Positions 4,198 through 19,307 of a stretch of DNA of 34,306 nt are shown piece after piece. Numbering within the stretch: position 1 is the stretch's first letter; every line of letters starts with the position of its first letter. Made by a program: the position numbers and the translations under genes. The DNA comes from a virus. The stretch lies in UHGV virus genome UHGV-0121572. The stretch is one strand, 5' to 3'. The notes below the pieces were generated by a model. That model was given only the letters and a program-made list of their open reading frames with translations. It was not told the DNA's origin and ran no database searches.

Positions 4198-4494
4198 ATG
4201 CTTACGAAAGAACCATCATTTGCATCGCTGCTGGTAAAACAAAGTCCGGCAATGCACTACGGTCACGGCTGGATCACGGGTGAGGATGGAAAACGCTGGC
4301 ATCCATGTCATTCACAAGATGAATTGCTGTCTGAATTGACCACGAGGAAACGGAGAAAGTCCAAATGTATGCGGCAGAAAGTGAAGTGGTTTATCAGTTT
4401 CGTTACAGAGGGGAGAGTTATTCAGTACCTGAAGATGATTTGCTCTGTTGCTATCCGTCATTGTCGGGCGATGGCAGTTACTTTTTCACGTTAA
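4198..4494 (+). CDS. Hypothetical early protein (overlaps the next ORF out of frame)
   Basis: ATG at 4198 with GAGGTG just upstream, immediately after the cII stop; the tail overlaps ORF 4365..4589 in another frame, so the true 3' extent is uncertain. Confidence 0.35.
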   Translation: MLTKEPSFASLLVKQSPAMHYGHGWITGEDGKRWHPCHSQDELLSELTTRKRRKSKCMRQKVKWFISFVTEGRVIQYLKMICSVAIRHCRAMAVTFSR

Positions 4495-4611: not shown

Positions 4612-4953
4612 ATGGCAATTAATGGCGCTGCAGCAACTGTTCCATTAAGCCCCGGTGAACGCCTGAATGGACTTAATCACATTGCGGAGTTAAGGGCGAA
4701 AGTTTTTGGCCTGAATATTGAGTCAGAGCTTGAGCGGTTTATTAAAGATATGCGTGATCCACGGGATATCAATAATGAACAAAATAAACGGGCACTGGCT
4801 GCCATATTCTTTATGGCAAAAATTCCAGCTGAACGTCATAGCATCAGCATTAATGAGCTGACCACTGACGAAAAGCGGGAGCTGATTAAAGCAATGAATC
4901 ATTTTCGTGCAGTGGTGAGCTTATTTCCCAGACGGCTAACCATGCCGAATTAA
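4612..4953 (+). CDS. Hypothetical early protein (113 aa)
   Basis: ORF in the early operon between cII and the replication gene, same strand. Confidence 0.55.
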   Translation: MAINGAAATVPLSPGERLNGLNHIAELRAKVFGLNIESELERFIKDMRDPRDINNEQNKRALAAIFFMAKIPAERHSISINELTTDEKRELIKAMNHFRAVVSLFPRRLTMPN

Positions 4954-5020
4954 CCAACTAATGAAATTAATGGCGTAAACCCGCCGGGCATCCCTTTATC
5001 TAAATTCAGGAGAATTAATT

Positions 5021-5254
5021 ATGCGTAATATTGAAACCCTCACGACTAAAACCGGACCGGATGACGCAGGGCTTAATATTTTACTGACAGAGGCTCGTCT
5101 GGAAGAACGCCGGGCAAGGGCAGAAGCAATGGCAGCTCGCCTTGATAGCCTGGCGTGTCATATCACATCCCGCCAGCTAAACCACGTCGAAGCGGCAGAA
5201 CTACTGCGTGTAACTGCTGAAGCAATCCAGAACGAAGCGCAGGAGATCCACTAA
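5021..5254 (+). CDS. Hypothetical early protein (77 aa)
   Basis: ORF preceded by AGGAGAA RBS; stop overlaps the start of the next gene. Confidence 0.55.
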   Translation: MRNIETLTTKTGPDDAGLNILLTEARLEERRARAEAMAARLDSLACHITSRQLNHVEAAELLRVTAEAIQNEAQEIH

Positions 5255-5481
5255 TGGCTGATGCAATGGATCTCGTACAGCAGCGCGTTGAAGAAGAACG
5301 CCAGCGCCATATTCGTGCTGCCCGTGCCAAAACACCGGGCGTGTCTCGCGTGCTTTGTATTGAATGTGAAGCGCCAATTCCGCCAGCACGACGCCGCGCC
5401 ATTCCGGGAGTGCAGCTTTGCATTACCTGCCAGGAAATCGCAGAGCTGAAAGGCAAACATTACAACGGAGGTGCTGTATGA
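5254..5481 (+). CDS. TraR/DksA-family C4 zinc-finger protein
   Basis: 75-aa ORF with CIEC…(x17)…CITC four-cysteine spacing characteristic of DksA/TraR zinc fingers; stop overlaps dam start (ATGA). Confidence 0.65.
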   Translation: MADAMDLVQQRVEEERQRHIRAARAKTPGVSRVLCIECEAPIPPARRRAIPGVQLCITCQEIAELKGKHYNGGAV

Positions 5482-6335
5482 GCACCATCCTGAAATGGGC
5501 GGGAAATAAAACCGCCATTATGTCCGAACTGAAAAAACACCTTCCTGCTGGCCCGCGACTGGTTGAACCTTTCGCGGGTTCCTGTGCTGTGATGATGGAG
5601 ACGGATTACCCCAGCTATCTGGTTGCGGATATTAATCCTGATTTAATCAACCTCTATAAAAAGGTTGCCGCTGATTGTGAATCGTTTATATCTCGCGCCA
5701 GAGTTTTATTTGAGATCGCAAACAGGGAGGTGGCTTATTACAACATAAGGCAGGAGTTTAATTACTCCACTGAAATTACTGATTTCATGAAAGCGGTATA
5801 TTTCCTGTATCTCAATCGTCACGGTTACCGTGGTTTATGTCGCTATAACAAGAGCGGGCATTTCAACATTCCCTACGGTAATTATAAAAATCCGTATTTC
5901 CCTGAAAAAGAAATTCGCGCATTTGCAGAAAAGGCCCAGCGAGCAACGTTTATCTGCGCCAGCTTTGATGAAACGCTGGCGATGTTGAAGGCGGGGGATG
6001 TGGTGTATTGCGATCCGCCGTATGACGGTACGTTTTCCGGCTATCACACTGACGGCTTCACTGAAGATGACCAGTATCACCTGGCATCTGTTCTTGAACA
6101 TCGGTCATCAGAAGGACATCCGGTCATTGTTTCTAACAGTGACACATCCCTGATCCGTTCGCTGTATCGCAATTTTACTCACCACTACATCAAGGCAAAA
6201 CGCAGCATCGGTGTGGCAGCTGGCGAGGGTAAATCAGCAACAGAAATCATTGCTGTTTCCGGGCCGCGCTGCTGGGTGGGATTTGATTATTCGCGTGGAG
6301 TGGATAGTTCTGCCGTGTACGGAGTACGTGCATGA
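5478..6335 (+). CDS. dam: Dam-like DNA N6-adenine methyltransferase
   Basis: ORF 5418..6335; ATG at 5478 with GGAGGTG RBS gives N-terminus [11 protein letters not shown] (AdoMet motif) and catalytic DPPY motif (…[10 protein letters not shown]…); stop overlaps start of A. Confidence 0.85.
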
Positions 6336-8746
6336 GTCATGCCGATATGAACAACTGCTGCGGCTTTAACGAAGCTGCCGCATCGTTCTCATGGAACAGC
6401 CCGAAAAAGGCCATTAACCCTTATCTGGACCCGGTGGAAGTTGCGCCGGTTTCTACGCTTTCAAACCTGATCACTCTGTACGCTGCCGATAACGAGCAGG
6501 AACAGCTGCGCCGTGAGGCGCTGAGTGATCAGGTCTGGGAGCGTTATTTCTTTAATGAATCCCGTGATCCTGTCCAGCGCGAAATGGAACAGGATAAGCT
6601 CATTAGTCGGGCAAAGCTGGTGCATGAGCAGCAGCGTTTTAATCCGGATATGGTCATTCTGGCGGACGTCAACGCCCAGCCTTCCCATATCAGCAAGCCG
6701 CTGATGCAACGTATTGAATACTTCAGCAGCCTTGGCAGGACAAAGGCTTATTCCCGCTATTTACGTGAGACGATTAAGCCATGTCTGGAACGACTGGAGC
6801 ATGTACGCGACAGTCAGCTATCTGCATCTTTTCGCTTTATGGCAAGCCATGAAGGGCTGGACGGCCTGCTGATCCTGCCTGAAATGAGTCAGGATCAGGT
6901 GAAACGCCTGTCCACCCTGGTAGCTGCGCATATGAGTATGTGCCTTGATGCCGCTTGTGGCGATTTGTATGCCACCGATGACGTTAAGCCAGAAGAAATC
7001 CGCAATACATGGGAAAGGGTGGCAGCGGAAACCCTGCGTCTGGATGTAATCCCGCCTGCGTTTGAGCAACTCCGTCGGAAAAGAAACCGCCGTAAACCCG
7101 TGCCCTATGAACTCATTCCGGGTTCGCTGGCGCGTATGTTGTGCGCCGACTGGTGGTATCGGAAATTATGGAAGATGCGTTGCGAATGGCGGGAAGAGCA
7201 GTTGCGTGCTGTCTGCCTTGTCAGCAAAAAAGCATCTCCCTATGTCAGCTATGAAGCCGTGTTGCATAAACGTGAGCAGCGCCGTAAGTCGCTGGAGTTT
7301 TTCCGTTCTCATGAACTGGTGAACGAAGACGGCGACACGCTGGACATGGAGGATGTGGTAAACGCCAGCAGCAGCAACCCTGCGCATCGCCGCAATGAGA
7401 TGATGGCCTGTGTTAAAGGTCTGGAGCTTATCGCGGAAATGCGCGGTGACTGCGCCGTTTTCTACACCATCACCTGTCCGTCACGTTTCCATTCCACGCT
7501 AAATAACGGCAGGCCCAACCCGACCTGGACAAATGCGACGGTAAGACAAAGCAGCGATTATCTGGTCGGTATGTTTGCTGCATTTCGTAAGGCGATGCAC
7601 AAAGCCGGGTTGCGCTGGTATGGCGTGCGGGTGGCTGAGCCGCATCACGACGGCACAGTTCACTGGCACCTGTTGTGTTTCATGCGCAAAAAAGACCGCC
7701 GCGCCATTACTGCATTGTTGCGTAAGTTTGCTATCCGTGAAGACCGCGAGGAGCTGGGCAATAACACGGGGCCGCGCTTTAAGTCTGAGCTGATTAACCC
7801 GCGCAAAGGAACGCCGACAAGCTACATAGCGAAATACATCAGTAAGAACATTGACGGGCGTGGTCTGGCTGGCGAGATCAGCAAGGAAACGGGTAAATCT
7901 CTGCGTGATAACGCTGAATACGTGAACGCCTGGGCGTCTTTGCATCGTGTTCAGCAATTCCGCTTCTTTGGCATTCCGGGGCGTCAGGCTTACCGTGAAC
8001 TGCGATTGCTGGCTGGTCAGGCGGCAAGGCAACAGGGGGACAAAAAAGCAGGTGCGCCGGTACTGGATAACCCGCGCCTTGATGCCATCCTGGCTGCTGC
8101 TGATGCTGGTTGTTTTGCCACCTACATCATGAAGCAGGGCGGCGTACTGGTTCCCCGTAAATATCACCTCATCAGAACCGCTTATGAAATCAACGAAGAG
8201 CCGACCGCCTATGGCGATCACGGCATTCGTATTTATGGCATCTGGTCACCTATTGCAGAGGGCAAGATCTGCACTCATGCAGTGAAGTGGAAAATGGTTC
8301 GTAAAGCCGTTGACGTTCAGGAGGCGGCAGCCGACCAGAGCGCTTGCGCCCCTTGGACTCGTGGCAATAACTGTCCCCTTGCTGAAAATTTGAACCAACA
8401 GGAGAAAGATAAATCAGCTGATGGGGACACCAGAACGGATATTACCCGCATGGATGACAAGGAGTTGCACGATTTTCTGCACAGTATGAACAAAAAAGAG
8501 CGCCGGGAACTGGCTGCAAGGTTACGCCTGGTGAAACCGAAACGGCGTAGAAACTACAAACAGCGAATTACAGACCATCAACGACAGCAGCTCGTCTATG
8601 AACTGAAGTCCAGAGGATTTGATGGCAGCGAGAAAGAGGTAGATTTACTCCTTCGCGGTGGCAGTATTCCGTCAGGAGCAGGCCTGCGTATCTTCTATCG
8701 GAACCAGCGTCTGAAGGAAGATGATAAGTGGCGGAACCTGTATTAA
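6332..8746 (+). CDS. A: Replication initiation endonuclease (P2 gpA / 186 A family, rolling-circle initiator)
   Basis: 804-aa ORF, last large gene of the early operon; size, position and internal region (…[13 protein letters not shown]…[14 protein letters not shown]…) consistent with P2 A-type replication protein. Confidence 0.85.
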
Positions 8747-8838
8747 TTACGCGGGTTAACAATTCGTGCTCTTAATAATACCAGGCATATCAGGCCGATG
8801 AACGTAAAAAAACGTTTTACATCAGTAAGATTATTATA

Positions 8839-8858
8839 TACTGTAAATATAAACAGTG
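8839..8858. promoter_or_regulatory. LexA (SOS) box TACTGTAAATATAAACAGTG
   Basis: Exact match to CTGT-N8-ACAG with AT-rich spacer, ~40 bp upstream of ORF 8899..9087; a second partial half-site (…TATACAGTA) lies just downstream. Confidence 0.6.
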
Positions 8859-8898
8859 GTTATGTATACAGTATTGCTTTGGTGTTATAGGAGGAAAG

Positions 8899-9087
8899 AT
8901 GCAGGACTATTTTTTGGAGTCTTTGAAGCTCCAGCGCATTGATTTTTTTCTTAAGCTTGTAGCGGCTAGTGAGTGTAGTGATGAAGAGAAGGGGCTGGCC
9001 CTGCAGTGGGTTTCTGAACTGACAGATGAACTCATGGCAAAAATCAGAACCCACGAATACAACCGCTCAATGGATGTCATCAGCTGA
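8899..9087 (+). CDS. Hypothetical SOS-controlled small protein (possible N-terminal part of a Tum-like antirepressor)
   Basis: 62-aa ORF with strong AGGAGG RBS directly downstream of the LexA box. Confidence 0.5.
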   Translation: MQDYFLESLKLQRIDFFLKLVAASECSDEEKGLALQWVSELTDELMAKIRTHEYNRSMDVIS

Positions 9088-9097
9088 GGTGACTTTT

Positions 9098-9331
9098 ATG
9101 CGCATTGAAATAATGATCGATAAAGAGCAGAAGATTAGCCAGTCTACACTAGACGCCCTTGAATCCGAGCTTTACCGCAATCTGCGCCCCCTGTATCCCA
9201 AAACGGTAATTCGTATCCGCAAAGGTAGCTCTAACGGTGTGGAACTGACCGGACTGCAACTGGACGAAGAAAGAAAACAAGTGATGAAAATTATGCAGAA
9301 GGTGTGGGAAGACGACAGCTGGCTGCATTAA
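9098..9331 (+). CDS. DinI-like protein (Tum C-terminal-domain-like)
   Basis: ORF 9026..9331; ATG at 9098 with GAGGTG RBS gives a 77-aa product MRIEIMIDKEQ…QKVWEDDSWLH matching the DinI family profile (MRIE… start, acidic W-containing C-terminus). Confidence 0.75.
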   Translation: MRIEIMIDKEQKISQSTLDALESELYRNLRPLYPKTVIRIRKGSSNGVELTGLQLDEERKQVMKIMQKVWEDDSWLH

Positions 9332-9490
9332 GAAACGTTGCTGGCGTCTGAAATTGCTTCTGGCGTCAGCAAGGTTGAACAACGAGTACAGTGAGGCGTT
9401 AGGTGTGGCGTTTATTTGATGAGTGAACGCCCTTTCTGCGACAGGTTTGGAGATTAAGGTTGAAACTACGGGCAAAATACCATCTTTTTC

Positions 9491-9916
9491 CTACTTAATT
9501 GAGTCCAGTAACAAGTTACAGTTACTCTCATTGTAGAGAGAACGAGCAATTAGTGTTACCTGCTTTCCATTCATTCCCGGCTTATCCCATAACACAGCTT
9601 CTTGCGACGCCACAAATTCAGCATAATCAATTATGCGTTGTTCGTGATCTGGTTCCTCATAGCCAAAGTATGAGAGCGCATCGTTGTAAGCGTGGTAAGC
9701 TGCTTTCTGTAATATCTTGATATCGGCTGTAGGTACTTGCTCCGTGTAGCTAGGATCTAATTGTGTGCTACTGCCATAGAATGCACATGAAAGGTAAGAT
9801 ATTGATTTCTGTTGAGCTTTAGTTCCTTTCTCATAGTTTTTAGCTGTTACCGCCTGAACTGGGACGCTAACAAAGCTTGCAACCAGAATTAAAATTAATA
9901 CGTAAAAGCTTTTCAT
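9491..9916 (-). CDS. Secreted/periplasmic protein of unknown function (141 aa), cargo (moron) candidate
   Basis: N-terminal signal peptide MKSFYVLILILVASFVSVPVQA with A-x-A-like cleavage site; GAGG RBS; opposite strand to flanking phage genes. Confidence 0.6.
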   Translation of the reverse strand: MKSFYVLILILVASFVSVPVQAVTAKNYEKGTKAQQKSISYLSCAFYGSSTQLDPSYTEQVPTADIKILQKAAYHAYNDALSYFGYEEPDHEQRIIDYAEFVASQEAVLWDKPGMNGKQVTLIARSLYNESNCNLLLDSIK

Positions 9917-10189
9917 TTTGACCTCAGCCGAAACGTTAGAGAGACTATCGAAGTTTGTAAAACCCGTGGCGATTCAGTTTGAGATCCTCCCCCTTACATG
10001 ATTTTTAATCAAATATATGCTTTTGTAAGCATACCTGTTAACCGAATTATTCATTTTTAGAGATCTTCCGACATACTGATTATGCCCGCTGAGGAGTTCA
10101 CCTTGCGTAAAGTCCGATTCGCTTTACTCGTCTGTGCATGTCTATGCTGCATGAGATTGCATGATCGTTTGAGGATCGTTTTTGCTAAG

Positions 10190-10214
10190 GCCCGCCAGAA
10201 CTGGCGGGCTTTTG
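10190..10214 (+). terminator. Rho-independent terminator ending the early/SOS rightward transcription unit
   Basis: GC-rich hairpin GCCCGCC-AGAACT-GGCGGGC followed by TTTTG. Confidence 0.6.
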
Positions 10215-10258
10215 CGTAGATTATGCACCTGCATGAAAACCACTACATAAAGCGGGCA

Positions 10259-10277
10259 GGCGTGGCGGGGATACGAG
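10259..10277. other. Candidate cos site (cohesive-end region)
   Basis: GGCGTGGCGGGGA matches the first 13 nt of the 19-nt cohesive end of phage 186 as I recall it (P2 differs by one base there), followed by a GCGCGC block as in P2/186 cos; sits between the end of the early region and the portal/terminase cluster. Confidence 0.4.
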
Positions 10278-10289
10278 CGCGCGCCACAA

Positions 10290-10360
10290 CATATTGTAAA
10301 TATGGTGTTAATTACGTTATTATTATAACACATAGATTAATTCTTCGATGAGATAAAGGA
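10290..10360 (+). promoter_or_regulatory. AT-rich promoter-like region and RBS upstream of the ATPase-HNH operon
   Basis: TTGTAA (-35-like) and TATTAT (-10-like) hexamers but imperfect spacing; AAAGGAG RBS 6-12 nt before the ATG at 10366. Confidence 0.25.
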
Positions 10361-10365
10361 GTGTC

Positions 10366-11589
10366 ATGAAATATTCAATTGATAAATTGGTTCATAAAGA
10401 TGAATTTAATAACAATTTCGAAATTGACCTTGGAGGGAGAAATTTAATTATTACTGGTAATAATGGTTCGGGAAAGACAAATTTATTAAAAAGATTGTAT
10501 TCTGTTTTAGAGCAGAGATTGGTTAGTATAGGGGATAATACCTTAACGAAGGCCATAGAAAAGCTGAACGAAGCTGAGGAACAATTAAGGAAACGTTTGC
10601 CTGGTGATTCATTATATGATTATTTTCTTAAACAGAAGAACGAAGCTACAAGGTTTATTGATAATGAAAAGAAATTTTCAATAACTTTTAATGATGAGAG
10701 GGATTTCAAGGTTTCAATTCATGAAAGAAAATCAATCATCAGATTTTTCGAAGCAACGCGGCAGGCGAGTATACTAGGTGATGGATCTATCTCAGGGATG
10801 GAAAAATTACTTCAAGAACACAAACAGCTATCGCTGACCAAGGATTCAGGTATATTATTTGAACGCTATTTAGTCTCTTATTGGAACTACGGGTTGCTGC
10901 AGAAGGGAAGTGGGAATGATATAGAGGCTGAGCGTGTTTTCAGCTGGATAGAAAAAATAAATCAAGATTTGAAAGTGTTGTTTGAAGATGAGTCTTTAAC
11001 GCTTGATTTTAATCTGGCAGAATTACGTATTTACTTAAAACAAAACGGTAAAGCACCTTTCAGATTAGATCAATTGTCGTCAGGTTTTTCATCAGTACTA
11101 TCTATTTATGCGGATTTGTTAGTAAAAGTTGAACTTGAAAAACTCGCACGTCACGAAATTTCAGGGATCGTTTTGATTGATGAAATTGATGCACATCTTC
11201 ATGTCACCCTACAGAAAAAGGTTTTCTCGTTTTTTAGTTCAGCTTTCCCAAATATACAGTTTATAATAACAACTCACTCTCCATTTGTTGTTCAATCTGT
11301 ATCGGATTGTATTATTTTTAATTTATCCACTTTAGAAACAATGTACGATCTCTCTATGTATTCTTACACGTCAATTATAAAAGGATTGCTAGGGGAAACT
11401 TCAGAGTCTGACACTCTAAAAGAAAAAATTAAATTGTTGGAGTCAATTTATAACGATCAGCAAATTAATGTTTTAGAATTGCAGAAGGTAGTCGGAGAAC
11501 TTGAGCCATATATTGATAAGATGGATGCAGCTTCGAAAGTAAAAATAGCCCTAGCTCAGAATAAAATCATTGAGATTCTAGGGGGGTAA
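10366..11589 (+). CDS. ABC/AAA-type ATPase (AAA_15/AAA_21-like; Septu PtuA-like defence ATPase candidate)
   Basis: Walker A GNNGSGKT near N-terminus, ABC-signature-like LSSGF, Walker B VLIDEIDAHLH and H-loop TTHSP near C-terminus; visibly AT-rich; 5-bp gap to downstream HNH gene. Confidence 0.8.
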   Translation: MKYSIDKLVHKDEFNNNFEIDLGGRNLIITGNNGSGKTNLLKRLYSVLEQRLVSIGDNTLTKAIEKLNEAEEQLRKRLPGDSLYDYFLKQKNEATRFIDNEKKFSITFNDERDFKVSIHERKSIIRFFEATRQASILGDGSISGMEKLLQEHKQLSLTKDSGILFERYLVSYWNYGLLQKGSGNDIEAERVFSWIEKINQDLKVLFEDESLTLDFNLAELRIYLKQNGKAPFRLDQLSSGFSSVLSIYADLLVKVELEKLARHEISGIVLIDEIDAHLHVTLQKKVFSFFSSAFPNIQFIITTHSPFVVQSVSDCIIFNLSTLETMYDLSMYSYTSIIKGLLGETSESDTLKEKIKLLESIYNDQQINVLELQKVVGELEPYIDKMDAASKVKIALAQNKIIEILGG

Positions 11590-11594
11590 TTATT

Positions 11595-12266
11595 ATGTTT
11601 AATGTTTCTAGGGTTGCTCCAGCCCCTGCCTGTTTAGCCCGTAAGACTTATAATGATCCTACGGTTGTTGCCGCGTTAAAAAGTATGTTCTTTGGTAAGT
11701 GTTATTTATGTGAGCAAGTTGATCTTACCGATCCAGAGATTGAGCATTTTACTCCTCATCAGGGCGATACATTGCTAAAATATAGCTGGGAGAATTTATT
11801 TTATTCTTGTCGTCGTTGTAATAGTATTAAAGGCACTCGACATACTAATATTCTAAATTGTACGGATTCCAGTGTAAATGTCACCAACGAGATTGTACAT
11901 ATATTACCGGGGATTAGCTCTGAAAGGGTAACTGTTCGTCCTTTTTCTTCAAATCCTAGCCAAGAGACATTAAATACAGTAGCGTTGCTTGATGAATGTT
12001 ATAATTTAGACAATACAGGTTTGCGTGGTATTACGCGAGAAAATTTAATGGAAAAAATTTTTGACCATTATTATGAGTATATAAATGTTAGACGAGTGCT
12101 GATCACTAGAACTAGTATACAGAGTAGAATCGATGAAGCTATTGAAACACTAAAAATAATGTGTAACCCAAAATATCCTTTTTCAGCGTTTTGGGTATGG
12201 CATTTTAAGCTCGATGTTCGGCTACATGAGTTACGGCCTGAGGTTTTAGAGGTTATTGACGTGTAG
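11595..12266 (+). CDS. HNH endonuclease (Septu PtuB-like nuclease candidate)
   Basis: CxxC…EH…N…CxxCN arrangement (…GKCYLCEQVDLTDPEIEHFTPHQG…WENLFYSCRRCNS…) typical of zinc-bound HNH nucleases; GGGGG RBS; co-oriented with upstream ATPase. Confidence 0.75.
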   Translation: MFNVSRVAPAPACLARKTYNDPTVVAALKSMFFGKCYLCEQVDLTDPEIEHFTPHQGDTLLKYSWENLFYSCRRCNSIKGTRHTNILNCTDSSVNVTNEIVHILPGISSERVTVRPFSSNPSQETLNTVALLDECYNLDNTGLRGITRENLMEKIFDHYYEYINVRRVLITRTSIQSRIDEAIETLKIMCNPKYPFSAFWVWHFKLDVRLHELRPEVLEVIDV

Positions 12267-12276
12267 ATGAGTTTTT

Positions 12277-12305
12277 GCGCCTGCGTATGCAGGCGCGATT
12301 TTTTT
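12277..12305. terminator. Bidirectional rho-independent terminator between the HNH gene and the portal gene
   Basis: Hairpin GCGCCTGC-GTAT-GCAGGCGC flanked by T-runs on both sides (GAGTTTTT … GATTTTTTT); convergent gene ends at 12266 (+) and 12320 (-). Confidence 0.6.
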
Positions 12306-12319
12306 AACTTACTATCATT

Positions 12320-13363
12320 TTATATGATACTACCGAACAATTCATAGGGGATAAAGTTGATAACTATTTGTCCCAGTCGATTATTTAATTCTTTCATTCG
12401 TTCTTGAAGGGGAATGAGTTCATTTCGCACAAAAACTCGACTCGCCTTCTCCACATCCCCAAATCCCCCGACATTATTTGGCATAATTCCCATCATCTGA
12501 GGCGGTACGCGGTGCGCAGCCATCATGTCATCGCGGCTGACATTTTTGATATTCAGAAACTCATCCTTCGCCGCGACCTCTGACAACGGGATAATCTGAA
12601 GCCCGTCTTTTTTGCCGTTAGGCGAGTACATAAACAGGTTGCGGAAGTTACCCGGTCCTTTGGCGCTTTTCATCGCGTTGCGGAGGTTGTTCACGTCCTC
12701 CTGGTTCTGCGCGGCATCGGTCATGTACATGATGAAGCCCGCATGACTGCCGTTAATGTAATACTTGCGACGGAACAGCGTGGCGGACTCATTGAGCAGG
12801 GCTGACGGAATAGCAGAAAGATAGCCGGGCAGGCCATAGATCTCCTGATTTATGTCCGGTTCCATCAGATGGAAAATGCTGCCTTTCGTGAACTGATACG
12901 GCTGCGTGGTCATGCCGTATTGCACAAACCAGTAGGTATCCAGGTCTAACCCGCGTCGGGTGTATTTTGCCAGCGCAGGTTCAAGGGCGATAACTTCACC
13001 GAAGCGGTTCGTGCGTTTCTCCAGATAGGCGTTACCAAATACCAGATAGTCCTGTACAAAACGCGAAAAAGCCTGTTGGCTGAGCAGCGGATGAGGGATA
13101 TAGGTACTGGTCAGAATGTTGCACTTTACTGCAATCGGGGAACTGTGATGCACGGCAGCGCGGAAGGTGCGCGCCAGTCCGTCAAAGCTGACGGGCGGCT
13201 CATACCAACGGTCCATCTGTACGCATTCCACATAGTCCAGTAATTCTCGGCGGTCCAGAACTGGAACGGGATCGCCGAAGCTGAATGCTTCGGCTGTAGT
13301 CTGGTTTTTATGCTGGATCTGATTCGTCGCCGCAGTGCGGTTTTTCTTACTCTTTCCCATCAA
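12320..13363 (-). CDS. Q: Portal protein (P2 gpQ family)
   Basis: 347-aa ORF in the conserved leftward Q-P pair, start overlapping the stop of the terminase ATPase gene; size and context match P2 Q. Confidence 0.85.
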   Translation of the reverse strand: MMGKSKKNRTAATNQIQHKNQTTAEAFSFGDPVPVLDRRELLDYVECVQMDRWYEPPVSFDGLARTFRAAVHHSSPIAVKCNILTSTYIPHPLLSQQAFSRFVQDYLVFGNAYLEKRTNRFGEVIALEPALAKYTRRGLDLDTYWFVQYGMTTQPYQFTKGSIFHLMEPDINQEIYGLPGYLSAIPSALLNESATLFRRKYYINGSHAGFIMYMTDAAQNQEDVNNLRNAMKSAKGPGNFRNLFMYSPNGKKDGLQIIPLSEVAAKDEFLNIKNVSRDDMMAAHRVPPQMMGIMPNNVGGFGDVEKASRVFVRNELIPLQERMKELNNRLGQIVINFIPYELFGSII

Positions 13364-15126
13364 AAAATCTCCACAATATTGCTGGTATTGGCGGACTCGC
13401 CCTGCAGCGGTTCGTTAAACAGTGCGTGCATCGTTGCCCAGGCCAGATCGGCGTGGCTGGCTTCTTCGCTGCGGCTGGCTTCATAGGTTGGGCGGTTGCC
13501 ACTGGCGGTGGTTGCGCGACGGATTGCCATGAATGACTGCGCAATGTCGGTGTGCCCGGCGTCAAACTCCAGACGGCGGTGGCTGATAATGTCGTAGGCC
13601 TTGAGTACCAGGGCGTTTTTAACGTTGGGGTTGTAGACAAACTCCCGGACGGCAGGAAAGAACGCTTTCACGTTCTCGTAAACCCCGTGACCAACGCCGG
13701 TTGAGTCGATACCGATATAAGTCACGTTGTACTGTTCGGTCAGTTTTTTGATGGCGTCAGCCTGGGCGCGAAAGTCCATTCCGCGCCACTGGTGACGCTC
13801 AAGAATGCGGAACTTGCCGCCCGGCACGGCTGGCGGAGCCACCACCACGCATCCGGCGCTGTCGCCATTCTGCGTACCTTTCGCCGGGTCATAACCGATC
13901 CATACTTCGCGCCAGCCAAACGGGCGCAGGGCCAGTGCATGAAAGTCAGTCCAGACTTCCCAGCTGTCTACCATGCACGCCTGCAGCTCGCTGAGCGGGA
14001 ACACGGACGCGAGATCGTCCACAAACTCGCACATCAGCAGGTTCTGGTATTCGTCCGGGCTGTACTCCATGCGCAACTGGTCAAGGTCGAACAGGTTACA
14101 GCCGCCGCGCACCGCATCTTCCACGGTGACTATCTGGCGGTATTGCCCGTCTGCGCACAGCAGGCCCGGGGCCAGATTGCTGTGGGACAGGTCGATGTCC
14201 ACCTTATCGGCTTTGTTGCGCCCACGGTTGAACAGCGCACCGGACCAGAACGGATAAGCACTGTGGGTCAGGCTGGATGGCGTGGAAAAATAGGTTTGTC
14301 GCCATTTTTTGTGAATAGCCATACCGGAAGCCACTTTGCGCAGCTCCTGGAATTTCGGTATCCAGAAATATTCATCCAGATACAGGTTGCCGTGGTAACT
14401 CTGGGCCGTGCGGGCATTGGTGCCGAGGAAGTAAAGCGTGGCCCCGTTAGGAAGCACCATCGGATCGCCTTTCAGCTCCACCTCGACTTCTTTGGCGAAG
14501 TCGATGATGTACTGCTTAAAGACGTGAGCCTGTGCCTTACTGGCAGAAAGGAAAATCTGGTTACGTCCGGTCAGCAGGGCGTCAATCAGGGCTTCACGGG
14601 CAAAGTAAAAGGTCGCGCCGATCTGGCGTGACTTCAGCAGGTTGCGGATGCGGTTGGTTTTTCCGGCTTCCCACCAGTGGCGCTGGTAGTTGAACATGGA
14701 GGAATGGAAGATTTCCTCCAGCTTTTCAATCTGTTCATCGGTGAAAACGTTCTTTTCCGGCTGACGACGCGGGCCTTTGTTGCGGTTGGCGACGTTAGGG
14801 TTTAAGTCGGCTTCGTTGCCGCCATTGTTAAACTTGCCGATCCGCGCATGGCGCTCCGACTGGCGCGCCAGCAGGTCAATCTCTTTGAAATCTTTCCCTT
14901 CTTTGTGCTCCTTCATAATGAGCTGGCAGTAGCGGGCGGCGGTGGTGAGCTGCATCTGATCCAGCGGCCCATAGTCACCCCACTTGTCGCGTTTCTTCCA
15001 GCTGTGAACGGTTGCAACTTTCTCGCCCAGCATTTCAGCAATGCGGGCTACGCGGTATCCCTGAAAGTACAGCAGCATGGCCTGCCGACGGGGATCGAGA
15101 TCTGCGGGTGTCAGTGTGGTGTTCAT
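13360..15126 (-). CDS. P: Terminase large (ATPase) subunit (P2 gpP family)
   Basis: 588-aa ORF divergent from the O-N-M-L operon; typical P2 P size and position. Confidence 0.85.
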   Translation of the reverse strand: MNTTLTPADLDPRRQAMLLYFQGYRVARIAEMLGEKVATVHSWKKRDKWGDYGPLDQMQLTTAARYCQLIMKEHKEGKDFKEIDLLARQSERHARIGKFNNGGNEADLNPNVANRNKGPRRQPEKNVFTDEQIEKLEEIFHSSMFNYQRHWWEAGKTNRIRNLLKSRQIGATFYFAREALIDALLTGRNQIFLSASKAQAHVFKQYIIDFAKEVEVELKGDPMVLPNGATLYFLGTNARTAQSYHGNLYLDEYFWIPKFQELRKVASGMAIHKKWRQTYFSTPSSLTHSAYPFWSGALFNRGRNKADKVDIDLSHSNLAPGLLCADGQYRQIVTVEDAVRGGCNLFDLDQLRMEYSPDEYQNLLMCEFVDDLASVFPLSELQACMVDSWEVWTDFHALALRPFGWREVWIGYDPAKGTQNGDSAGCVVVAPPAVPGGKFRILERHQWRGMDFRAQADAIKKLTEQYNVTYIGIDSTGVGHGVYENVKAFFPAVREFVYNPNVKNALVLKAYDIISHRRLEFDAGHTDIAQSFMAIRRATTASGNRPTYEASRSEEASHADLAWATMHALFNEPLQGESANTSNIVEIF

Positions 15127-15172
15127 GGCACAAACCTACAGCCTTGAATGAAGGCTTTCCCCGCCTGCGGTT

Positions 15173-15190
15173 TGTGTGGTTGTCGGTACA
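15173..15190. promoter_or_regulatory. Late-promoter activator site (TGT-N12-ACA, Ogr/B-type) in the P/O divergent intergenic region
   Basis: TGTGTGGTTGTCGGTACA centred ~87 bp upstream of the O start; P2/186 late promoters use a TGT-N12-ACA dyad bound by the zinc-finger activator Ogr/B. Confidence 0.45.
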
Positions 15191-15268
15191 AATACCGCGC
15201 ATTGTTTCACTACCCCCATCACCGCAACCATAAGGCTCCAGTAAGTTTTTTCTAACGGAGCACGGCTC

Positions 15269-16102
15269 ATGACAGTGAAAGCAAAGCGTTTTCGCATCGG
15301 GGTGGAAGGTGCCACCACCGACGGACGCGAAATCCAGCGTGAATGGCTGGAACAGATGGCAGCCAGCTACAACCCGGCGGTGTATACCGCGCTGATTAAC
15401 CTTGAGCACATCAAGTCTTATCTGCCGGACAGCACCTTTAACCGCTACGGCAAGGTGACGGCGCTGTTTGCTGAAGAAATAACGGAAGGTCCGCTGGCAG
15501 GAAAGATGGCGCTGTATGCCGATGTTGAGCCAACGGAGTCCCTGGTGGAGCTGGTGAAAAAAGGCCAGAAATTATTCACCTCTATGGAAGTCAGCCCGAA
15601 GTTTGCTGATACGGGCAAAGCCTACCTGGTCGGCCTGGCTGCCACTGATGACCCTGCCAGTCTGGGTACGGAAATGCTGACATTCAGCGCCAGTGCAGCC
15701 CATAACCCGCTGGCAAACCGCAAGCAGAATCCCGCCAATCTCTTTACCGCTGCAGAGGAAACGGTGATCGAACTGGAAGAAATCCAGGACGACAAACCGT
15801 CCCTGTTTGCCCGCGTCACGGCGCTGTTTACCAAAAAAGAGCAGTCAGACGATGCCCGGTTCTCTGATGTGCATAAGGCCGTGGAGCTGGTCGCCACTGA
15901 GCAGCAAAACCTGAGCGGACGCACCGAAAAATCCCTGTCTGAGCAGGAAGAACGCCTGTCTGAGCTGGAGACTGCTCTGCAGGAGCAGCAAACCGCCTTT
16001 AACGAACTGGTGAATAAGCTGAGTCATGAAGACAGCCGCCAGGACTACCGCCAGCGTGCAACAGGCGGTAACGCCCCCGCTGACACTCTGACCAATTGCT
16101 GA
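15269..16102 (+). CDS. O: Capsid scaffolding protein (P2 gpO family)
   Basis: N-terminus (…RFRIGVEGATTDGREI…NLEHIKSYLPD…) and LVGLAATDDPASLGTE block match P2 O as recalled. Confidence 0.9.
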   Translation: MTVKAKRFRIGVEGATTDGREIQREWLEQMAASYNPAVYTALINLEHIKSYLPDSTFNRYGKVTALFAEEITEGPLAGKMALYADVEPTESLVELVKKGQKLFTSMEVSPKFADTGKAYLVGLAATDDPASLGTEMLTFSASAAHNPLANRKQNPANLFTAAEETVIELEEIQDDKPSLFARVTALFTKKEQSDDARFSDVHKAVELVATEQQNLSGRTEKSLSEQEERLSELETALQEQQTAFNELVNKLSHEDSRQDYRQRATGGNAPADTLTNC

Positions 16103-16118
16103 TGGAGCACAAAACCCG

Positions 16119-17177
16119 ATGAAGAAGAATACCCGCTTTGCTTTTAACGCTTATCTGCAGCAGCTGGCGCGTCTGAACGGTGTGGCAGTTGAAGAACTGT
16201 CCAGCAAGTTCACCGTAGAGCCGTCTGTGCAGCAGACGCTGGAAGACCAGATCCAGCAGTCCGCCTCTTTCCTGACGCTGATTAACGTCACGCCAGTGAC
16301 TGAGCAGTCTGGTCAGTTGCTGGGGCTGGGTGTTGGCAGCACCATTGCCGGAACCACTGATACCGCAGCTAAAGAGCGTGAGCCTGTCGATCCGACGCTG
16401 ATGGTCGATGTGGAATATAAATGCGAGCAGACCAACTTTGACACGGTGCTGACCTACGCGAAGCTGGATCTGTGGGCGAAGTTTCAGGATTTCCAGGTGC
16501 GCATCCGTGACGCCATCGTGAAACGTCAGGCACTGGACCGCATCATGATCGGCTTTAACGGCGTGAAGCGTGCGAAAACCTCCAACCGTAGCGAAAACCC
16601 GCTGCTGCAGGATGTGAATAAAGGCTGGCTGCAGAAAATCCGTGAGGATGCACCGGATCACGTCATGGGCAGCACCACCACGGGCGGTGAAACCACACCG
16701 GGCGCAGTGAAAGTCGGGAAAGGTGGCGAATATGCCAACCTGGACGCGGTGGTGATGGATGCCGTCAATGAGCTTATCGACGTGGTCTACCAGGACGATG
16801 ACGATCTGGTGGTGATTTGCGGGCGTGAACTGCTGTCTGACAAGTATTTCCCGCTGGTCAACAAAGAGCAGGAAAACAGTGAAAAACTGGCTGCCGATAT
16901 GATCATCAGTCAGAAACGCATGGGTGGCCTGCAGGCGGTGCGTGCGCCGTTCTTCCCGCCGAATGCACTGCTGATCACCCGTCTGGATAACCTGTCCATC
17001 TACTGGCAGGAAGATACCCGCCGCCGTTCAGTTATCGACAACCCGAAACGTGACCGGATTGAAAATTTTGAATCCGTTAACGAAGCCTATGTGGTTGAGG
17101 ACTACCGCTGCGCTGCACTGGTGGAAAACATCCAGATTGGTGACTTCAGCGCCGCCGCAGCAGAAACCGGAGCGTAA
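16119..17177 (+). CDS. N: Major capsid protein (P2 gpN family)
   Basis: Strong recalled similarity to P2 N (…RFAFNAYL…FTVEPSV…NKEQENSEKLAADMIISQKR…ENFESVN…). Confidence 0.9.
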   Translation: MKKNTRFAFNAYLQQLARLNGVAVEELSSKFTVEPSVQQTLEDQIQQSASFLTLINVTPVTEQSGQLLGLGVGSTIAGTTDTAAKEREPVDPTLMVDVEYKCEQTNFDTVLTYAKLDLWAKFQDFQVRIRDAIVKRQALDRIMIGFNGVKRAKTSNRSENPLLQDVNKGWLQKIREDAPDHVMGSTTTGGETTPGAVKVGKGGEYANLDAVVMDAVNELIDVVYQDDDDLVVICGRELLSDKYFPLVNKEQENSEKLAADMIISQKRMGGLQAVRAPFFPPNALLITRLDNLSIYWQEDTRRRSVIDNPKRDRIENFESVNEAYVVEDYRCAALVENIQIGDFSAAAAETGA

Positions 17178-17180
17178 TTC

Positions 17181-17831
17181 ATGAGCCTGAGTCCCGCACG
17201 GCAGCATCGCCTGCGCGTTCAGGCTGAACAGGCCGCTCGCGAGGGGGGCAGTGTTCGCCACGCGTCGGGCTATGACCTGATGCTGCTGCAACTGGCGGAA
17301 GACCGCCGCCGTCTCAAGGGCGTTCAGTCCACGGTCAAAAAAGCGGAAATCAAGGTGGAGCTGCTGCCGAAATATGCCGCCTGGGCGGAGGGCGTTCTGG
17401 CTGCCGGAGGCGCTCAACAGGATGACGTGCTGATGTACGTGATGCTGTGGCGCATTGATGCTGGAGATTATGCCGGGGCGCTGGAGATCGGGCGTCATGC
17501 CCTGCGTCATGGCTGGGTGATGCCGCTGGGTAACCGCAACGTGCAGACCGTGCTGGCAGAGGAAATGGCAGACGCGGCGCAGAGCGCAATGCTTGCCGCC
17601 ACCGGCTTTGATGCCGATCTGTTGCTGCAGACGCTGGAGCTGACAGACGGTCTGGATATGCCGGACCAGTCACGGGCGCGTCTGCATAAAGCGATTGGCG
17701 CTGTCCTGAGTGAAAGCAACCCGGCTTCCGCCCTTAATCATCTCAACCATGCGTTACAGCTCGATCCCCGCTGTGGCGTGAAAAAAGACAAACAGCAGCT
17801 GGAGCGCAGACTGCGCAATGACAGCCGCTGA
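17181..17831 (+). CDS. M: Terminase small/endonuclease subunit (P2 gpM family)
   Basis: 216-aa ORF directly after N in the conserved O-N-M-L order. Confidence 0.8.
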   Translation: MSLSPARQHRLRVQAEQAAREGGSVRHASGYDLMLLQLAEDRRRLKGVQSTVKKAEIKVELLPKYAAWAEGVLAAGGAQQDDVLMYVMLWRIDAGDYAGALEIGRHALRHGWVMPLGNRNVQTVLAEEMADAAQSAMLAATGFDADLLLQTLELTDGLDMPDQSRARLHKAIGAVLSESNPASALNHLNHALQLDPRCGVKKDKQQLERRLRNDSR

Positions 17832-17926
17832 CAGAACGTGCCCCCGCGCACGGGCGGCACGGGGTGGCGAAAGGCACTGCCACATCAAAACCCCGTCCAC
17901 CGCCCTCTATTTCAGGAGAAAGCAGC

Positions 17927-18391
17927 ATGAAGTTTGTTGCGCCAGAACAGGCACCGGAACAGGCGGAAATCATCAGAAACACGCCGTTCTGGCCTGATGT
18001 GGACCTGTCGGAGTTTCGCAGTGTCATGCGCACTGACGGCACGGTGACGCAGCCGCGTTTAAAGCAGGTTGCGCTGTCGGCAATTTCGGAGGTCAACGCA
18101 GAGCTGTATGAGTTTCGCAGACGTCAGCAGATGCTGGGATATGCCTCGCTGGCAGAGGTTCCGGCTGAACAGCTGGACGGCAAAAGTGAGCGCATTCATC
18201 ACTATTTCAACGCGGTTTACTGCTGGGCGCGCGCCATGCTCAACGAGCGTTATCAGGACTATGACGCCACGGCATCCGGTGTGAAGCGGGGCGAGGAACT
18301 GGCGGAAGCAAGCGGTGATTTGTGGCGTGACGCCCGCTGGGCCATCAGCCGGGTGCAGGATGCGCCGCACTGCACAGTGGAGCTTATCTGA
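17927..18391 (+). CDS. L: Head completion/stabilisation protein (P2 gpL family)
   Basis: ORF 17864..18391; ATG at 17927 with AGGAGA RBS (MKFVAPEQ…); conserved position after M. Confidence 0.8.
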   Translation: MKFVAPEQAPEQAEIIRNTPFWPDVDLSEFRSVMRTDGTVTQPRLKQVALSAISEVNAELYEFRRRQQMLGYASLAEVPAEQLDGKSERIHHYFNAVYCWARAMLNERYQDYDATASGVKRGEELAEASGDLWRDARWAISRVQDAPHCTVELI

Positions 18392-18594
18392 TGAAAGTGC
18401 GTGCGCATCAGTATGACACGGTGGACGCGCTTTGCTGGCGTCATTACGGGCGCACGCAGGGTGTCACGGAGCAGGTACTGAAGGCAAATCCGGGGCTTGC
18501 CGAATACGGCCCCTTTTTACCTCACGGGCTGCAGGTGGAGTTGCCGGACATTCCGACCACCACCACCGTGCAGACCGTCCAGCTATGGGACTGA
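18391..18594 (+). CDS. X: Tail protein X (P2 gpX family)
   Basis: 67-aa ORF (same length as P2 X), start overlapping the L stop. Confidence 0.7.
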   Translation: MKVRAHQYDTVDALCWRHYGRTQGVTEQVLKANPGLAEYGPFLPHGLQVELPDIPTTTTVQTVQLWD

Positions 18595-19306: not shown

Positions 19307-19307
19307 A

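What the first reader, a model, noticed from the sequence alone, without database searches (positions are those of the whole stretch)
10366..12266. AT-rich two-gene ATPase + HNH nuclease operon between the cos-like site and the portal gene (Septu-like candidate defence system)
Two tightly linked, co-oriented genes (5-bp gap, each with its own RBS) sit between the candidate cos site and the 3' end of portal gene Q, a known variable cargo position in P2-like phages. Gene 1 (407 aa) has Walker A GNNGSGKT, an ABC-signature-like LSSGF, Walker B VLIDEIDAHLH and an H-loop TTHSP, i.e. an ABC/SMC-like AAA_15/21 ATPase. Gene 2 (223 aa) has a CxxC…EH…N…CxxCN HNH nuclease core. This ATPase-plus-HNH architecture is that of Septu (PtuA/PtuB), but the ATPase is compact and I cannot establish sequence-level relatedness by eye, so it may be a divergent or unclassified variant. 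The base composition is much more AT-rich than the flanking phage genes, consistent with horizontal acquisition, and it is bracketed by terminators.
Basis: partly seen in the sequence, partly recalled or inferred. Interest (0 to 1): 0.85.

Follow-up and report, generated by a model that had tools for sequence, protein, structure and literature searches.

The report
Septu defence genes in P2-like prophage
The two genes are a standard Septu (PtuA ATPase plus PtuB HNH nuclease) anti-phage module, sitting in the known cargo hotspot beside the packaging site of a P2-like E. coli prophage, so the finding is real but ordinary.

Summary
Two co-oriented ORFs, 10366..11589 (407 aa) and 11595..12266 (223 aa), lie 5 bp apart. 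Their GC is 0.34, against 0.53-0.56 in the flanking phage genes. They sit between a cos-like site (10259..10277) and the portal gene.

The Septu reading is also right. It is not an unclassified variant:
- ORF1 matches PADLOC PtuA model PDLC00268 end to end (E 1.5e-124).
- ORF2 matches PtuB model PDLC00331 end to end (E 2.6e-83).
- For both AlphaFold models, the best solved-structure matches are PtuA or PtuB chains only.
- The Walker A, signature, Walker B and H-loop residues, and the CxxC/EH/N/CxxCN HNH residues, are invariant across relatives at 40-89% identity.
- The gene pair recurs in a Klebsiella island, a Serratia P4-like satellite, another E. coli island and a Vibrio chromosome.
- No reverse transcriptase or retron RNA is present.

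A role in packaging is excluded. About 1,260 other E. coli genomes carry the same cos backbone without these genes.

The gpA-gpQ interval is the P2 hotspot published by Rousset et al. 2022. Both exact proteins (WP_033813594 and WP_033813593) are listed in their Table S5A. I found no experimental test of this compact subfamily. Already known; low interest.

The parts
10133..10287 (.). Conserved P2-family cos region. It is the left boundary of the variable block and contains the cos-like 19-mer at 10259..10277.
   Evidence: Homology to four other E. coli P2-like prophages (88-94% identity) ends at 10284..10287. About 1,269 genomes share only this part of the query. The 19-mer matches P2 cosL at 14/19 positions.
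10187..10212 (+). Strong hairpin followed by TTTT, upstream of cos. It belongs to the phage backbone, not the cargo.
   Evidence: MFE -23.4 kcal/mol, z -5.0. Conserved in the CFT073 and Klebsiella alignments. Not called by the consensus terminator scan.
10294..10323 (+). Candidate sigma-70 promoter for the operon (TTGTAA, 18-nt spacer, TATTAT). This is a weak consensus match only.
   Evidence: 9 of 12 matches. The number of promoter-like sites in the region does not exceed the shuffled expectation, so this is a suggestion only.
10356..10361 (+). Shine-Dalgarno sequence AAGGAG for ptuA.
   Evidence: Sequence read directly.
10366..11589 (+). ptuA: a 407-aa ABC/SMC-like ATPase (RefSeq WP_033813594).
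   Evidence: PADLOC PtuA PDLC00268, E 1.5e-124, residues 3-403 against positions 3-405 of 411. Pfam AAA_21, AAA_15 and SMC_N all above cutoff. AF2 model pLDDT 80.6, and the top 50 PDB hits are all PtuA chains. Catalytic motifs are invariant.
11580..11586 (+). Shine-Dalgarno-like AGGGGGG for ptuB, inside the 3' end of ptuA. This suggests translational coupling.
   Evidence: Sequence read directly.
11595..12266 (+). ptuB: a 223-aa HNH nuclease with a C-terminal helical domain (RefSeq WP_033813593).
   Evidence: PADLOC PtuB PDLC00331, E 2.6e-83, residues 1-218 against positions 1-219 of 222. AF2 model pLDDT 93.9, and the top 10 PDB hits are all PtuB chains, aligned over the full length, TM 0.5-0.65. 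A family profile finds solved PtuB chains at E 2.5e-6. HNH and zinc-finger residues are invariant.
12275..12305 (+). Intrinsic terminator of the ptuAB operon.
   Evidence: 10-bp stem with 7 GC pairs, then T7. MFE -19.6 kcal/mol, z -5.4. Conserved in the Klebsiella copy.
12320..12420 (-). AT-rich 3' end of the portal gene (last 20-33 codons). It travels with the cassette and forms the right boundary of the variable block.
   Evidence: Homology to other E. coli P2-like prophages resumes only at 12381..12420. The Klebsiella island keeps this portal fragment at 81% identity up to 12462, without the rest of the portal gene.

Best explanation
This is a type I Septu anti-phage system (ptuA-ptuB). It is carried as a non-essential cargo cassette in the cos-proximal gpA-gpQ hotspot of a P2-like (Peduoviridae) prophage of E. 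coli.

Shown here:
- Both proteins belong to the PtuA and PtuB families by sequence profile and by fold.
- All catalytic residues are intact and conserved.
- The two genes form one tightly coupled operon with its own ribosome-binding sites and terminator.
- The pair moves as a unit between unrelated mobile elements.

Inferred from characterised Septu and PtuAB systems:
- PtuA, an ABC/SMC-type ATPase, oligomerises. Its C-terminal helices hold the C-terminal helical domain of PtuB.
- In the resting lysogen the nucleotide-bound PtuA assembly keeps the HNH nuclease in check.
- Infection by a heterologous phage releases or activates PtuB.
- PtuB then cuts nucleic acid. For E. coli Septu, the reported activities are supercoiled-DNA nicking in vitro and cleavage of the tRNA-Tyr variable loop in vivo.
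- This stops phage replication in an abortive-infection-like way, which protects the lysogen population and so the prophage.

The signature motif reads LSSGF. It has a hydrophobic residue where retron-type PtuA has the Gln of LSDGQ. Stand-alone Septu PtuA has Leu at that position. This fits a stand-alone, ATP-sensing type of PtuA rather than the retron-associated type.
For: - Profiles: full-length PADLOC hits PtuA E 1.5e-124 and PtuB E 2.6e-83. The next-best non-Septu models are far weaker (ATPase_I-A 4e-28, AriA 2.5e-22).
- Pfam: AAA_21, AAA_15 and SMC_N.
- Folds: the best PDB matches are PtuB chains only (ranks 1-10) and PtuA chains only (ranks 1-50). They include E. coli Septu 8eea, 8sux and 8ee4.
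- Sequence matches to solved structures: PtuA to solved PtuA chains at E 6e-17 to 2e-10. The PtuB family profile to solved PtuB chains at E 2.5e-6.
- Catalytic residues are invariant in relatives down to 40% identity.
- The pair (about 410 aa plus about 221 aa, 3-5 bp gap) is conserved in five unrelated contexts: this P2-like prophage, a Klebsiella ssrA island, a Serratia P4-like satellite next to its cos, an E. coli island that also carries DUF4238, and a Vibrio chromosome.
- Base composition: GC 0.34 against about 0.54.
- Distribution: only 8 of about 1,269 E. coli genomes with this cos backbone carry the cassette.
- Position: the slot is the published P2 hotspot, and both proteins are listed in its Table S5A.
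- Mechanism literature: PMC13096335 and PMC12819146.
Against: - I found no experimental test of this particular subfamily. The tested E. coli Septu systems (ATCC 25922, EcB88, Septu I of Wu et al.) have a longer PtuA, with Walker A at K43 and Walker B at D316.
- Those systems share only about 16-18% structure-aligned identity with this PtuA. Trigger, target and stoichiometry are therefore extrapolated.
- Pfam HNH scores just below its gathering cutoff (20.8 against 21.4 bits).
- PtuA TM-scores to solved chains are modest (0.45-0.52) with large rmsd. PtuA residues 329-347 are highly conserved but modelled with pLDDT below 50.
- Expression in the lysogen is not shown. The promoter call is weak, and AT-rich cargo may be silenced.
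Confidence: 0.88

Rival explanations
1. The HNH protein is a packaging-associated endonuclease that helps the terminase cut cos, as in HK97-like phages, and the ATPase is unrelated.
For: It lies next to cos, the portal gene and the terminase genes. There are weak PHROG hits to 'terminase small subunit' families (E 0.037-0.039).
Against: - About 1,260 E. coli genomes carry the same cos backbone and portal gene without these genes.
- Reference P2 has only 168 bp and a terminator between cosL and Q.
- The prophage has its own terminase ATPase and endonuclease subunits.
- The same pair sits in non-phage contexts, namely a Vibrio chromosome and an E. coli island.
- The best PHROG families are full-length families of unknown function, not packaging families.
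- The full-length fold is that of PtuB.
Confidence: 0.01
2. The pair is the effector module of a type I-A retron (as in Ec78/Eco7 or Ec83) rather than a stand-alone Septu.
For: The best PDB sequence and fold hits include retron-associated PtuA and PtuB chains. NCBIfam retron PtuA/PtuB models give partial hits.
Against: - There is no reverse-transcriptase ORF in or beside the cassette (annotation).
- No RNA family hit was found in 8500..13500.
- The NCBIfam retron equivalog scores are far below their cutoffs (91 against 500 bits; 26.6 against 150 bits).
- This PtuA lacks the roughly 140 extra residues of the retron-type PtuA (550 aa).
- It has Phe instead of the retron-type Gln in the signature motif.
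- None of the four other contexts examined shows an RT.
Confidence: 0.01
3. It belongs to a different ATPase-nuclease defence family (PARIS AriAB, Gabija, OLD-like, AbiL-like) and only resembles Septu through the shared ABC ATPase core.
For: PADLOC also reports AriA (E 2.5e-22) and ATPase_I-A (4e-28) hits for ORF1. These families share the AAA_15/AAA_21 core.
Against: - The PtuA hit is about 100 orders of magnitude better and covers the full length.
- The partner is an HNH protein with the PtuB-specific C-terminal helical domain, not a TOPRIM or DUF4435 protein.
- All the top structural matches are PtuA or PtuB chains.
Confidence: 0.02
4. The cassette is a decayed or silenced passenger, or acts mainly as an addiction (toxin-antitoxin-like) module that stabilises the prophage, and gives no useful phage defence.
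For: Expression is unproven and the promoter match is weak. AT-rich DNA in E. coli is often silenced by H-NS (general knowledge). PtuAB is toxic when deregulated in retron systems.
Against: - Both ORFs are intact and all catalytic residues are present.
- The sequences are 100% identical in 7 complete genomes and 99.6% identical in an eighth, and the exact PtuA sequence was seen on 360 contigs.
- Strong conservation across genera at 40-89% identity indicates purifying selection.
- Other Septu systems cloned with native promoters do defend against phage.
Confidence: 0.06

Closest known systems
E. coli ATCC 25922 Septu (PtuAB; PDB 8EE4, 8EE7, 8EEA, 8SUX; Li et al. 2024 NSMB, cited in PMC12819146 and PMC13096335)
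   Same: - A two-gene stand-alone operon: an ABC/SMC-type ATPase plus an HNH nuclease with a C-terminal helical domain.
- Foldseek probability 1.00 for both proteins.
- A hydrophobic residue replaces the retron-type Gln in the signature motif.
   Different: - This PtuA is 407 aa, against 465 aa.
- Only the Walker B/H-loop region aligns by sequence (E 1.6e-12, residues 223-313).
- Structure-aligned identity is about 16-18%.
- PtuB gives no pairwise sequence hit.
- It is a different PADLOC subfamily model.
- The hexameric assembly and ATP-inhibited nicking have not been tested for this subfamily.
Septu EcB88 and Septu I of E. coli (PMC13096335; bioRxiv 10.1101/2022.08.21.504612)
   Same: The same system type in the same species. 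In those systems defence needs Walker A/B and HNH residues whose equivalents are all present here (K37, D272/E273, H51, N67).
   Different: Residue numbering (K43, D316, H75, N91) shows a longer, different subfamily. tRNA-Tyr cleavage and the T5/T-even defence spectrum are known for those systems only.
Septu entry #105 in the P2 hotspot (Rousset et al. 2022, Table S5B)
   Same: Septu carried in the same gpA-gpQ hotspot of E. coli P2-like prophages.
   Different: Only about 40% identity, limited to an 80-residue stretch of PtuA and a 76-residue stretch of PtuB. It is a separate subfamily. The proteins studied here appear only in the uncurated arrangement list (Table S5A), labelled 'AAA_21/... 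+ hypothetical'.
Retron Ec78/Eco7 and Ec83 PtuAB effectors (type I-A retrons)
   Same: Homologous ATPase and HNH proteins. They give the best PDB sequence and fold matches.
   Different: There is no RT, ncRNA or msDNA here. PtuA lacks the N-terminal extension and the msDNA-binding insertions. The NCBIfam retron equivalog cutoffs are not met.
P2 Old (and Tin), the classical exclusion genes of the same hotspot
   Same: An ABC-type ATPase coupled to a nuclease, carried as a lysogenic-conversion gene next to cos in a P2-family phage.
   Different: Old is a single polypeptide with a TOPRIM nuclease and lies on the A-gene side of cos. Here there are two proteins, the nuclease is HNH, and the cassette lies on the portal side of cos.

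Membership tests
Septu (type I; PtuA + PtuB) | PtuA: an ABC/SMC-like (AAA_15/AAA_21) ATPase that matches PtuA family profiles over its full length | tested here: met
   PADLOC PDLC00268, E 1.5e-124, 3-403 against 3-405 of 411. Pfam AAA_21 72.7 bits, AAA_15 47 bits, SMC_N 44.8 bits, all above cutoff.
Septu (type I; PtuA + PtuB) | PtuB: an HNH nuclease of the TIGR02646/PtuB type with a C-terminal helical domain | tested here: met
   PADLOC PDLC00331, E 2.6e-83, 1-218 against 1-219 of 222. The top 10 PDB fold matches are PtuB chains aligned over the full length. A family profile hits solved PtuB chains at E 2.5e-6. Caveats: Pfam HNH scores 0.6 bit below its cutoff, and TIGR02646 scores below its cutoff (35.5 against 52 bits).
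Septu (type I; PtuA + PtuB) | Intact catalytic residues: Walker A Lys, Walker B Asp/Glu, signature motif, H-loop, and the HNH His/Asn with two CxxC pairs | tested here: met
   K37, D272/E273, L237-SSG, H304, and C36/C39/H51/N67/C72/C75/N76 are all invariant in the alignments.
Septu (type I; PtuA + PtuB) | The two genes are adjacent, co-oriented and conserved as a pair across genomes | tested here: met
   A 5-bp gap here. The same pair with a 3-5 bp gap occurs in Klebsiella, Serratia, a second E. coli island and Vibrio.
Septu (type I; PtuA + PtuB) | Stand-alone system with no retron RT or ncRNA attached | tested here: met
   No RT ORF. No Rfam hit. Retron-specific NCBIfam models score far below their cutoffs.
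Septu (type I; PtuA + PtuB) | PtuA-PtuB complex in which the PtuA C-terminal extension binds the PtuB C-terminal domain, on a PtuA oligomer | not testable with these tools
   Only monomer models were possible. The C-terminal helices of PtuA (349-406) and of PtuB (123-220) are present. The conserved PtuA segment 328-351 is modelled with low confidence, as would be expected for an interface. No complex prediction was available.
Septu (type I; PtuA + PtuB) | Confers resistance to phage, dependent on both the ATPase and the HNH activity | not testable with these tools
   This needs plating assays. I found no publication that tests this subfamily.
Type I-A retron effector PtuAB | Adjacent reverse transcriptase and msr/msd ncRNA, and a PtuA with an N-terminal extension and msDNA-binding insertions | tested here: not met
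   No RT or ncRNA. PtuA is 407 aa against 550 aa. NF041760 scores 91 bits against a cutoff of 500.
Terminase-associated HNH endonuclease (HK97-type cos packaging factor) | A small HNH protein conserved with the terminase and portal genes and required for cos cleavage across the phage group | tested here: not met
   It is absent from about 1,260 related E. coli prophages and from P2 itself. It is present in non-phage loci.
P2-like phage gpA-gpQ defence hotspot cargo (Rousset et al. 2022) | A variable, AT-rich gene block between replication gene A and portal gene Q, next to cos, flanked by conserved backbone | tested here: met
   The boundaries are 10287 and 12381-12420. GC is 0.34. Other prophages hold different cargo in the same slot. 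WP_033813594 and WP_033813593 are listed in Table S5A.

The most novel reading that the evidence does not exclude
The compact PtuA(about 410 aa)/PtuB(about 221 aa) subfamily (PADLOC PDLC00268/PDLC00331) has no tested member that I could find. It shares under 20% identity with every solved PtuA. It might therefore differ from characterised Septu in oligomeric state, trigger or nucleic-acid target.

Separately, a block made of the cos region, ptuAB and a remnant of the portal gene's 3' end is 81% identical between this prophage and a Klebsiella satellite-like island. That block may be a direct fossil of a defence cassette moving from a helper phage to a satellite by recombination across cos.
Probability: 0.15. 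Interest if true: 0.4.

Novelty: already known. Interest (0 to 1): 0.15.

Why it matters
It adds little new. It is one more example of temperate phages of the P2 family carrying ready-made immunity cassettes next to their packaging site, where they can be swapped by recombination between conserved flanks.

Its practical value is as an annotation. RefSeq calls the two genes only 'AAA family ATPase' and 'HNH endonuclease'. They can be labelled ptuA and ptuB.

It is also a natural, compact (1.9 kb) Septu variant. Testing it would show whether the tRNA-Tyr and DNA-nicking mechanisms extend to distant Septu subfamilies.

Tried and rejected
- Pairwise sequence search of PtuB against the PDB found nothing. 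A family profile and a fold search were needed to link it to solved PtuB structures.
- The NCBIfam retron PtuA/PtuB equivalogs gave only partial hits below cutoff. I read these as shared ancestry, not as retron membership.
- An Rfam scan of 8500..13500 gave only two chance-level eukaryotic hits.
- I searched the paper library for WP_033813594. I also searched the Rousset supplements for the protein sequences themselves. There were no hits beyond the accession listing in Table S5A.
- Li et al. 2024, the Septu structure paper, is not held. Its findings are cited second-hand from PMC12819146 and PMC13096335.
- A concatenated query of the cos flank plus the portal end showed that cos and the portal gene are rarely within about 860 bp of each other in E. 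coli prophages (7 of 1,293 genomes). I then read five loci individually rather than attempting a full census.
- The upstream 'terminator' was not called by the consensus scan. I folded it separately.
- I considered and rejected three alternative readings: a packaging HNH, a retron effector, and PARIS/Gabija/OLD membership (see the rival explanations).
Full report
**What is there**

The window is a P2-like (Peduoviridae) prophage of E. coli, integrated next to rcdA. A megablast of 10200..12330 finds the identical segment in 7 complete E. coli genomes and a 99.6% copy in an eighth, out of 5,426. There it is annotated as 'AAA family ATPase | HNH endonuclease | phage portal protein'.

The annotated neighbourhood in NZ_CP159170 reads: integrase, CI, CII, replication endonuclease A, a small hypothetical, a DinI-like gene, a 141-aa hypothetical, the two genes of interest, portal, terminase ATPase, scaffold, major capsid, terminase endonuclease subunit, lysis genes and tail genes. 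The window is 97.8% identical to that prophage over 4612..24330. It diverges (87%) in the integrase and immunity region.

**Checking the observation**

- ORF1 is 10366..11589 (+, 407 aa) and ORF2 is 11595..12266 (+, 223 aa), with a 5-bp gap.
- AAGGAG lies 4 nt before the first ATG. AGGGGGG, inside the end of ORF1, lies 8 nt before the second ATG.
- GC is 0.344 for 10288..12380, against 0.531 and 0.556 in the flanking phage genes.
- A strong intrinsic terminator follows ORF2: a stem at 12275..12298 with T7, -19.6 kcal/mol, z -5.4.
It sits before cos in conserved backbone.
- The cos-like 19-mer GGCGTGGCGGGGATACGAG at 10259..10277 matches the annotated P2 cosL (GGCGAGGCGGGGAAAGCAC) at 14 of 19 positions.

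**Identity of the proteins**

- ORF1 matches PADLOC PtuA model PDLC00268 at E 1.5e-124, over residues 3-403 of the protein and positions 3-405 of a 411-position model.
- ORF2 matches PtuB model PDLC00331 at E 2.6e-83, over 1-218 against 1-219 of 222. So the 'compact' size is that of an already modelled Septu subfamily.
- The next-best non-Septu models are far weaker: ATPase_I-A at 4e-28 and AriA at 2.5e-22.
- Pfam gives AAA_21, AAA_15 and SMC_N for ORF1. For ORF2 it gives an HNH hit 0.6 bit below cutoff.
- The NCBIfam retron-type PtuA and PtuB equivalogs hit only partially and far below their cutoffs.
- The best PHROG families are full-length families of unknown function.

**Structure**

The AlphaFold2 models were built on alignments of 31 and 29 homologues. 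Mean pLDDT is 93.9 for PtuB and 80.6 for PtuA.

- For PtuB, Foldseek against the PDB returns only PtuB chains in ranks 1-10. These come from retron Ec78/Eco7, E. coli Septu 8eea_G, retron IA and Ec83. The alignments cover the full length, with TM 0.5-0.65.
- For PtuA, it returns only PtuA chains in ranks 1-50, including E. coli Septu 8eea, 8sux and 8ee4. TM is 0.45-0.52 and identity 16-18%.
- By sequence, PtuA reaches solved PtuA chains at E 6e-17 to 2e-10 through its Walker B/H-loop half.
- PtuB alone gives no pairwise hit. Its family profile finds solved PtuB chains at E 2.5e-6.

**Conservation**

PtuA relatives are found at 40-89% identity in Salmonella, Klebsiella, Kosakonia, Citrobacter, Proteus, Serratia, Enterobacter, Vibrio, Aeromonas and Photobacterium. 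They keep these residues invariant:
- Walker A: G31, G34, G36, K37, T38
- signature: L237-S-S-G240
- Walker B: D272-E273, then I-D-A-H-L-H
- H-loop: T303-H304-S-P

PtuB relatives keep C36, C39, E50, H51, N67, C72, C75 and N76 invariant.

In the alignment to retron PtuA, the signature LSDGQR corresponds to LSSGFS here. PMC12819146 reports that stand-alone Septu PtuA also has a hydrophobic residue (Leu) at that Gln position. This fits a stand-alone type.

PtuA segment 328-351 is almost invariant but modelled with pLDDT below 50. I read this, as an inference only, as a probable protein-protein interface.

**The pair is a mobile module, not a packaging function**

The same architecture (about 410 aa plus about 221-223 aa, 3-5 bp gap) occurs in four other contexts:
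- a Klebsiella island beside smpB/ssrA, with an integrase, AlpA and a DUF927 primase (82% identity);
- a Serratia P4-like satellite (Ogr/Delta, Ash, AlpA, primase, integrase), immediately after its cos-like site (55% identity);
- an E. coli island with H-NS paralogues and a DUF4238 gene (41% identity);
- a Vibrio chromosome downstream of gcvP (43% identity).

About 1,260 E. coli genomes share the cos backbone but lack the cassette. Reference P2 has only 168 bp and the terminator tQ between cosL and Q. The prophage has its own terminase ATPase and endonuclease subunits.

No reverse transcriptase ORF and no RNA family hit accompany the pair. It is not a type I-A retron.

**The slot**

Homology to four other E. 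coli P2-like prophages ends at 10284..10287. It resumes at 12381..12420, inside the last 20-33 codons of the portal gene.

All four of those prophages carry different cargo between cos and the portal gene:
- CFT073: a TIGR02391 protein
- E. coli C: a retron St85
- KL53: IS1 plus DUF6953
- KE47: a RES-family NAD+ phosphorylase

Rousset et al. 2022 (PMC9122126) defined the gpA-gpQ cos-proximal interval as a defence hotspot of P2-like phages. Their Table S5A lists WP_033813594 plus WP_033813593 as 'AAA_21/AAA_15/SMC_N/AAA_23 + hypothetical'. Their curated Table S5B annotates a different pair (#105) as Septu. That pair is only about 40% identical to this one, over short stretches.

**How it most likely works**

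This part is inferred from characterised relatives.

- E. coli Septu EcB88 protects against Demerecviridae and T-even phages in an abortive-infection-like way. [quoted passage not shown]
- PMC12819146 describes stand-alone E. coli Septu PtuAB as follows. It forms an inflammasome-like PtuA hexamer. It shows DNA-nicking activity, and the paper contrasts this with the Ec78 PtuAB complex, which is insensitive to ATP inhibition. It is sensitised by a phage tail-fibre protein.
- In the retron and Septu structures, PtuB's helical C-terminal domain is clamped by the C-terminal extensions of a PtuA dimer.
- The protein here has matching C-terminal helices in both subunits.

I therefore propose that a PtuA oligomer restrains PtuB until infection, after which PtuB cuts tRNA and/or DNA. 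The trigger, target and stoichiometry for this subfamily are not shown.

**Novelty and score**

The system type, its mechanism class, the hotspot and even these accessions are already in the literature or in databases. A routine PADLOC run would label the pair as Septu. The only open points are:
- I found no experimental test of this compact subfamily.
- A block of cos, ptuAB and a portal-3' remnant is shared at 81% DNA identity with a Klebsiella island.

Noticed in passing
window 25700..27300: A second AT-rich island (GC 0.30-0.39) lies between a tail-fibre-assembly-like ORF (25098..25700) and the tail sheath gene (27419..28591). This is the position of the P2 Z/fun locus. It holds an orphan ORF, 25974..26846 (-, 290 aa), with no Pfam or PADLOC hit and only weak hits to PHROG families of unknown function. 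Next to it is a resolvase/invertase C-terminal fragment (27007..27276). It may be an uncharacterised cargo or defence gene.
   Followed up: partly
window 9491..9916 (-): A 141-aa ORF with a hydrophobic, signal-like N-terminus lies on the A-gene side of cos, so it is also inside the hotspot. It has no Pfam or PADLOC hit. It matches phrog_7437 (unknown function) over its full length at E 4e-99.
   Followed up: partly
window 10133..12462 against L002 5767..8106: A Klebsiella integrative island beside smpB carries an integrase, AlpA, a DUF927 primase and an IS. It shares one continuous block at 81% DNA identity with the window. The block covers the cos region, the promoter region, ptuAB, the terminator and about 140 nt of the portal gene's 3' end, without the rest of the portal gene. 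This looks like a fossil of cassette transfer together with cos between a P2-like phage and a satellite-like element.
   Followed up: partly
window 12320..12420 (-): The last 20-33 codons of the portal gene are AT-rich and belong to the variable block. Homology to other E. coli P2-like prophages resumes only at 12381..12420. Cassette swapping therefore also replaces the portal protein's C-terminal tail.
   Followed up: partly
L006, L007, L008, L009 (cos to portal interval); L010: All four other E. coli P2-like prophages sampled carry cargo on the portal side of cos: a TIGR02391 protein, a retron St85, IS1 plus DUF6953, and a RES NAD+ phosphorylase. Three of them also carry cargo on the A-gene side. 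Reference P2 has nothing but the terminator tQ between cosL and Q. In only 7 of 1,293 genomes are the cos flank and the portal end within about 860 bp of each other.
   Followed up: partly
window 1307..4329: The integrase and immunity region is only about 87% identical to the prophage in NZ_CP159170, which is otherwise 97.8% identical and sits at the same rcdA-adjacent site. This indicates a mosaic prophage. An unannotated 161-aa ORF (732..1217, -), with no family hit, lies between rcdA and the integrase gene.
   Followed up: no
L012/L013 8728..9750: A 41%-identical PtuAB pair lies in another E. coli island about 1.8 kb from a DUF4238 gene. DUF4238 is a single-gene system that Rousset et al. 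validated against T7. The island also encodes H-NS paralogues. It is probably a small defence island.
   Followed up: no
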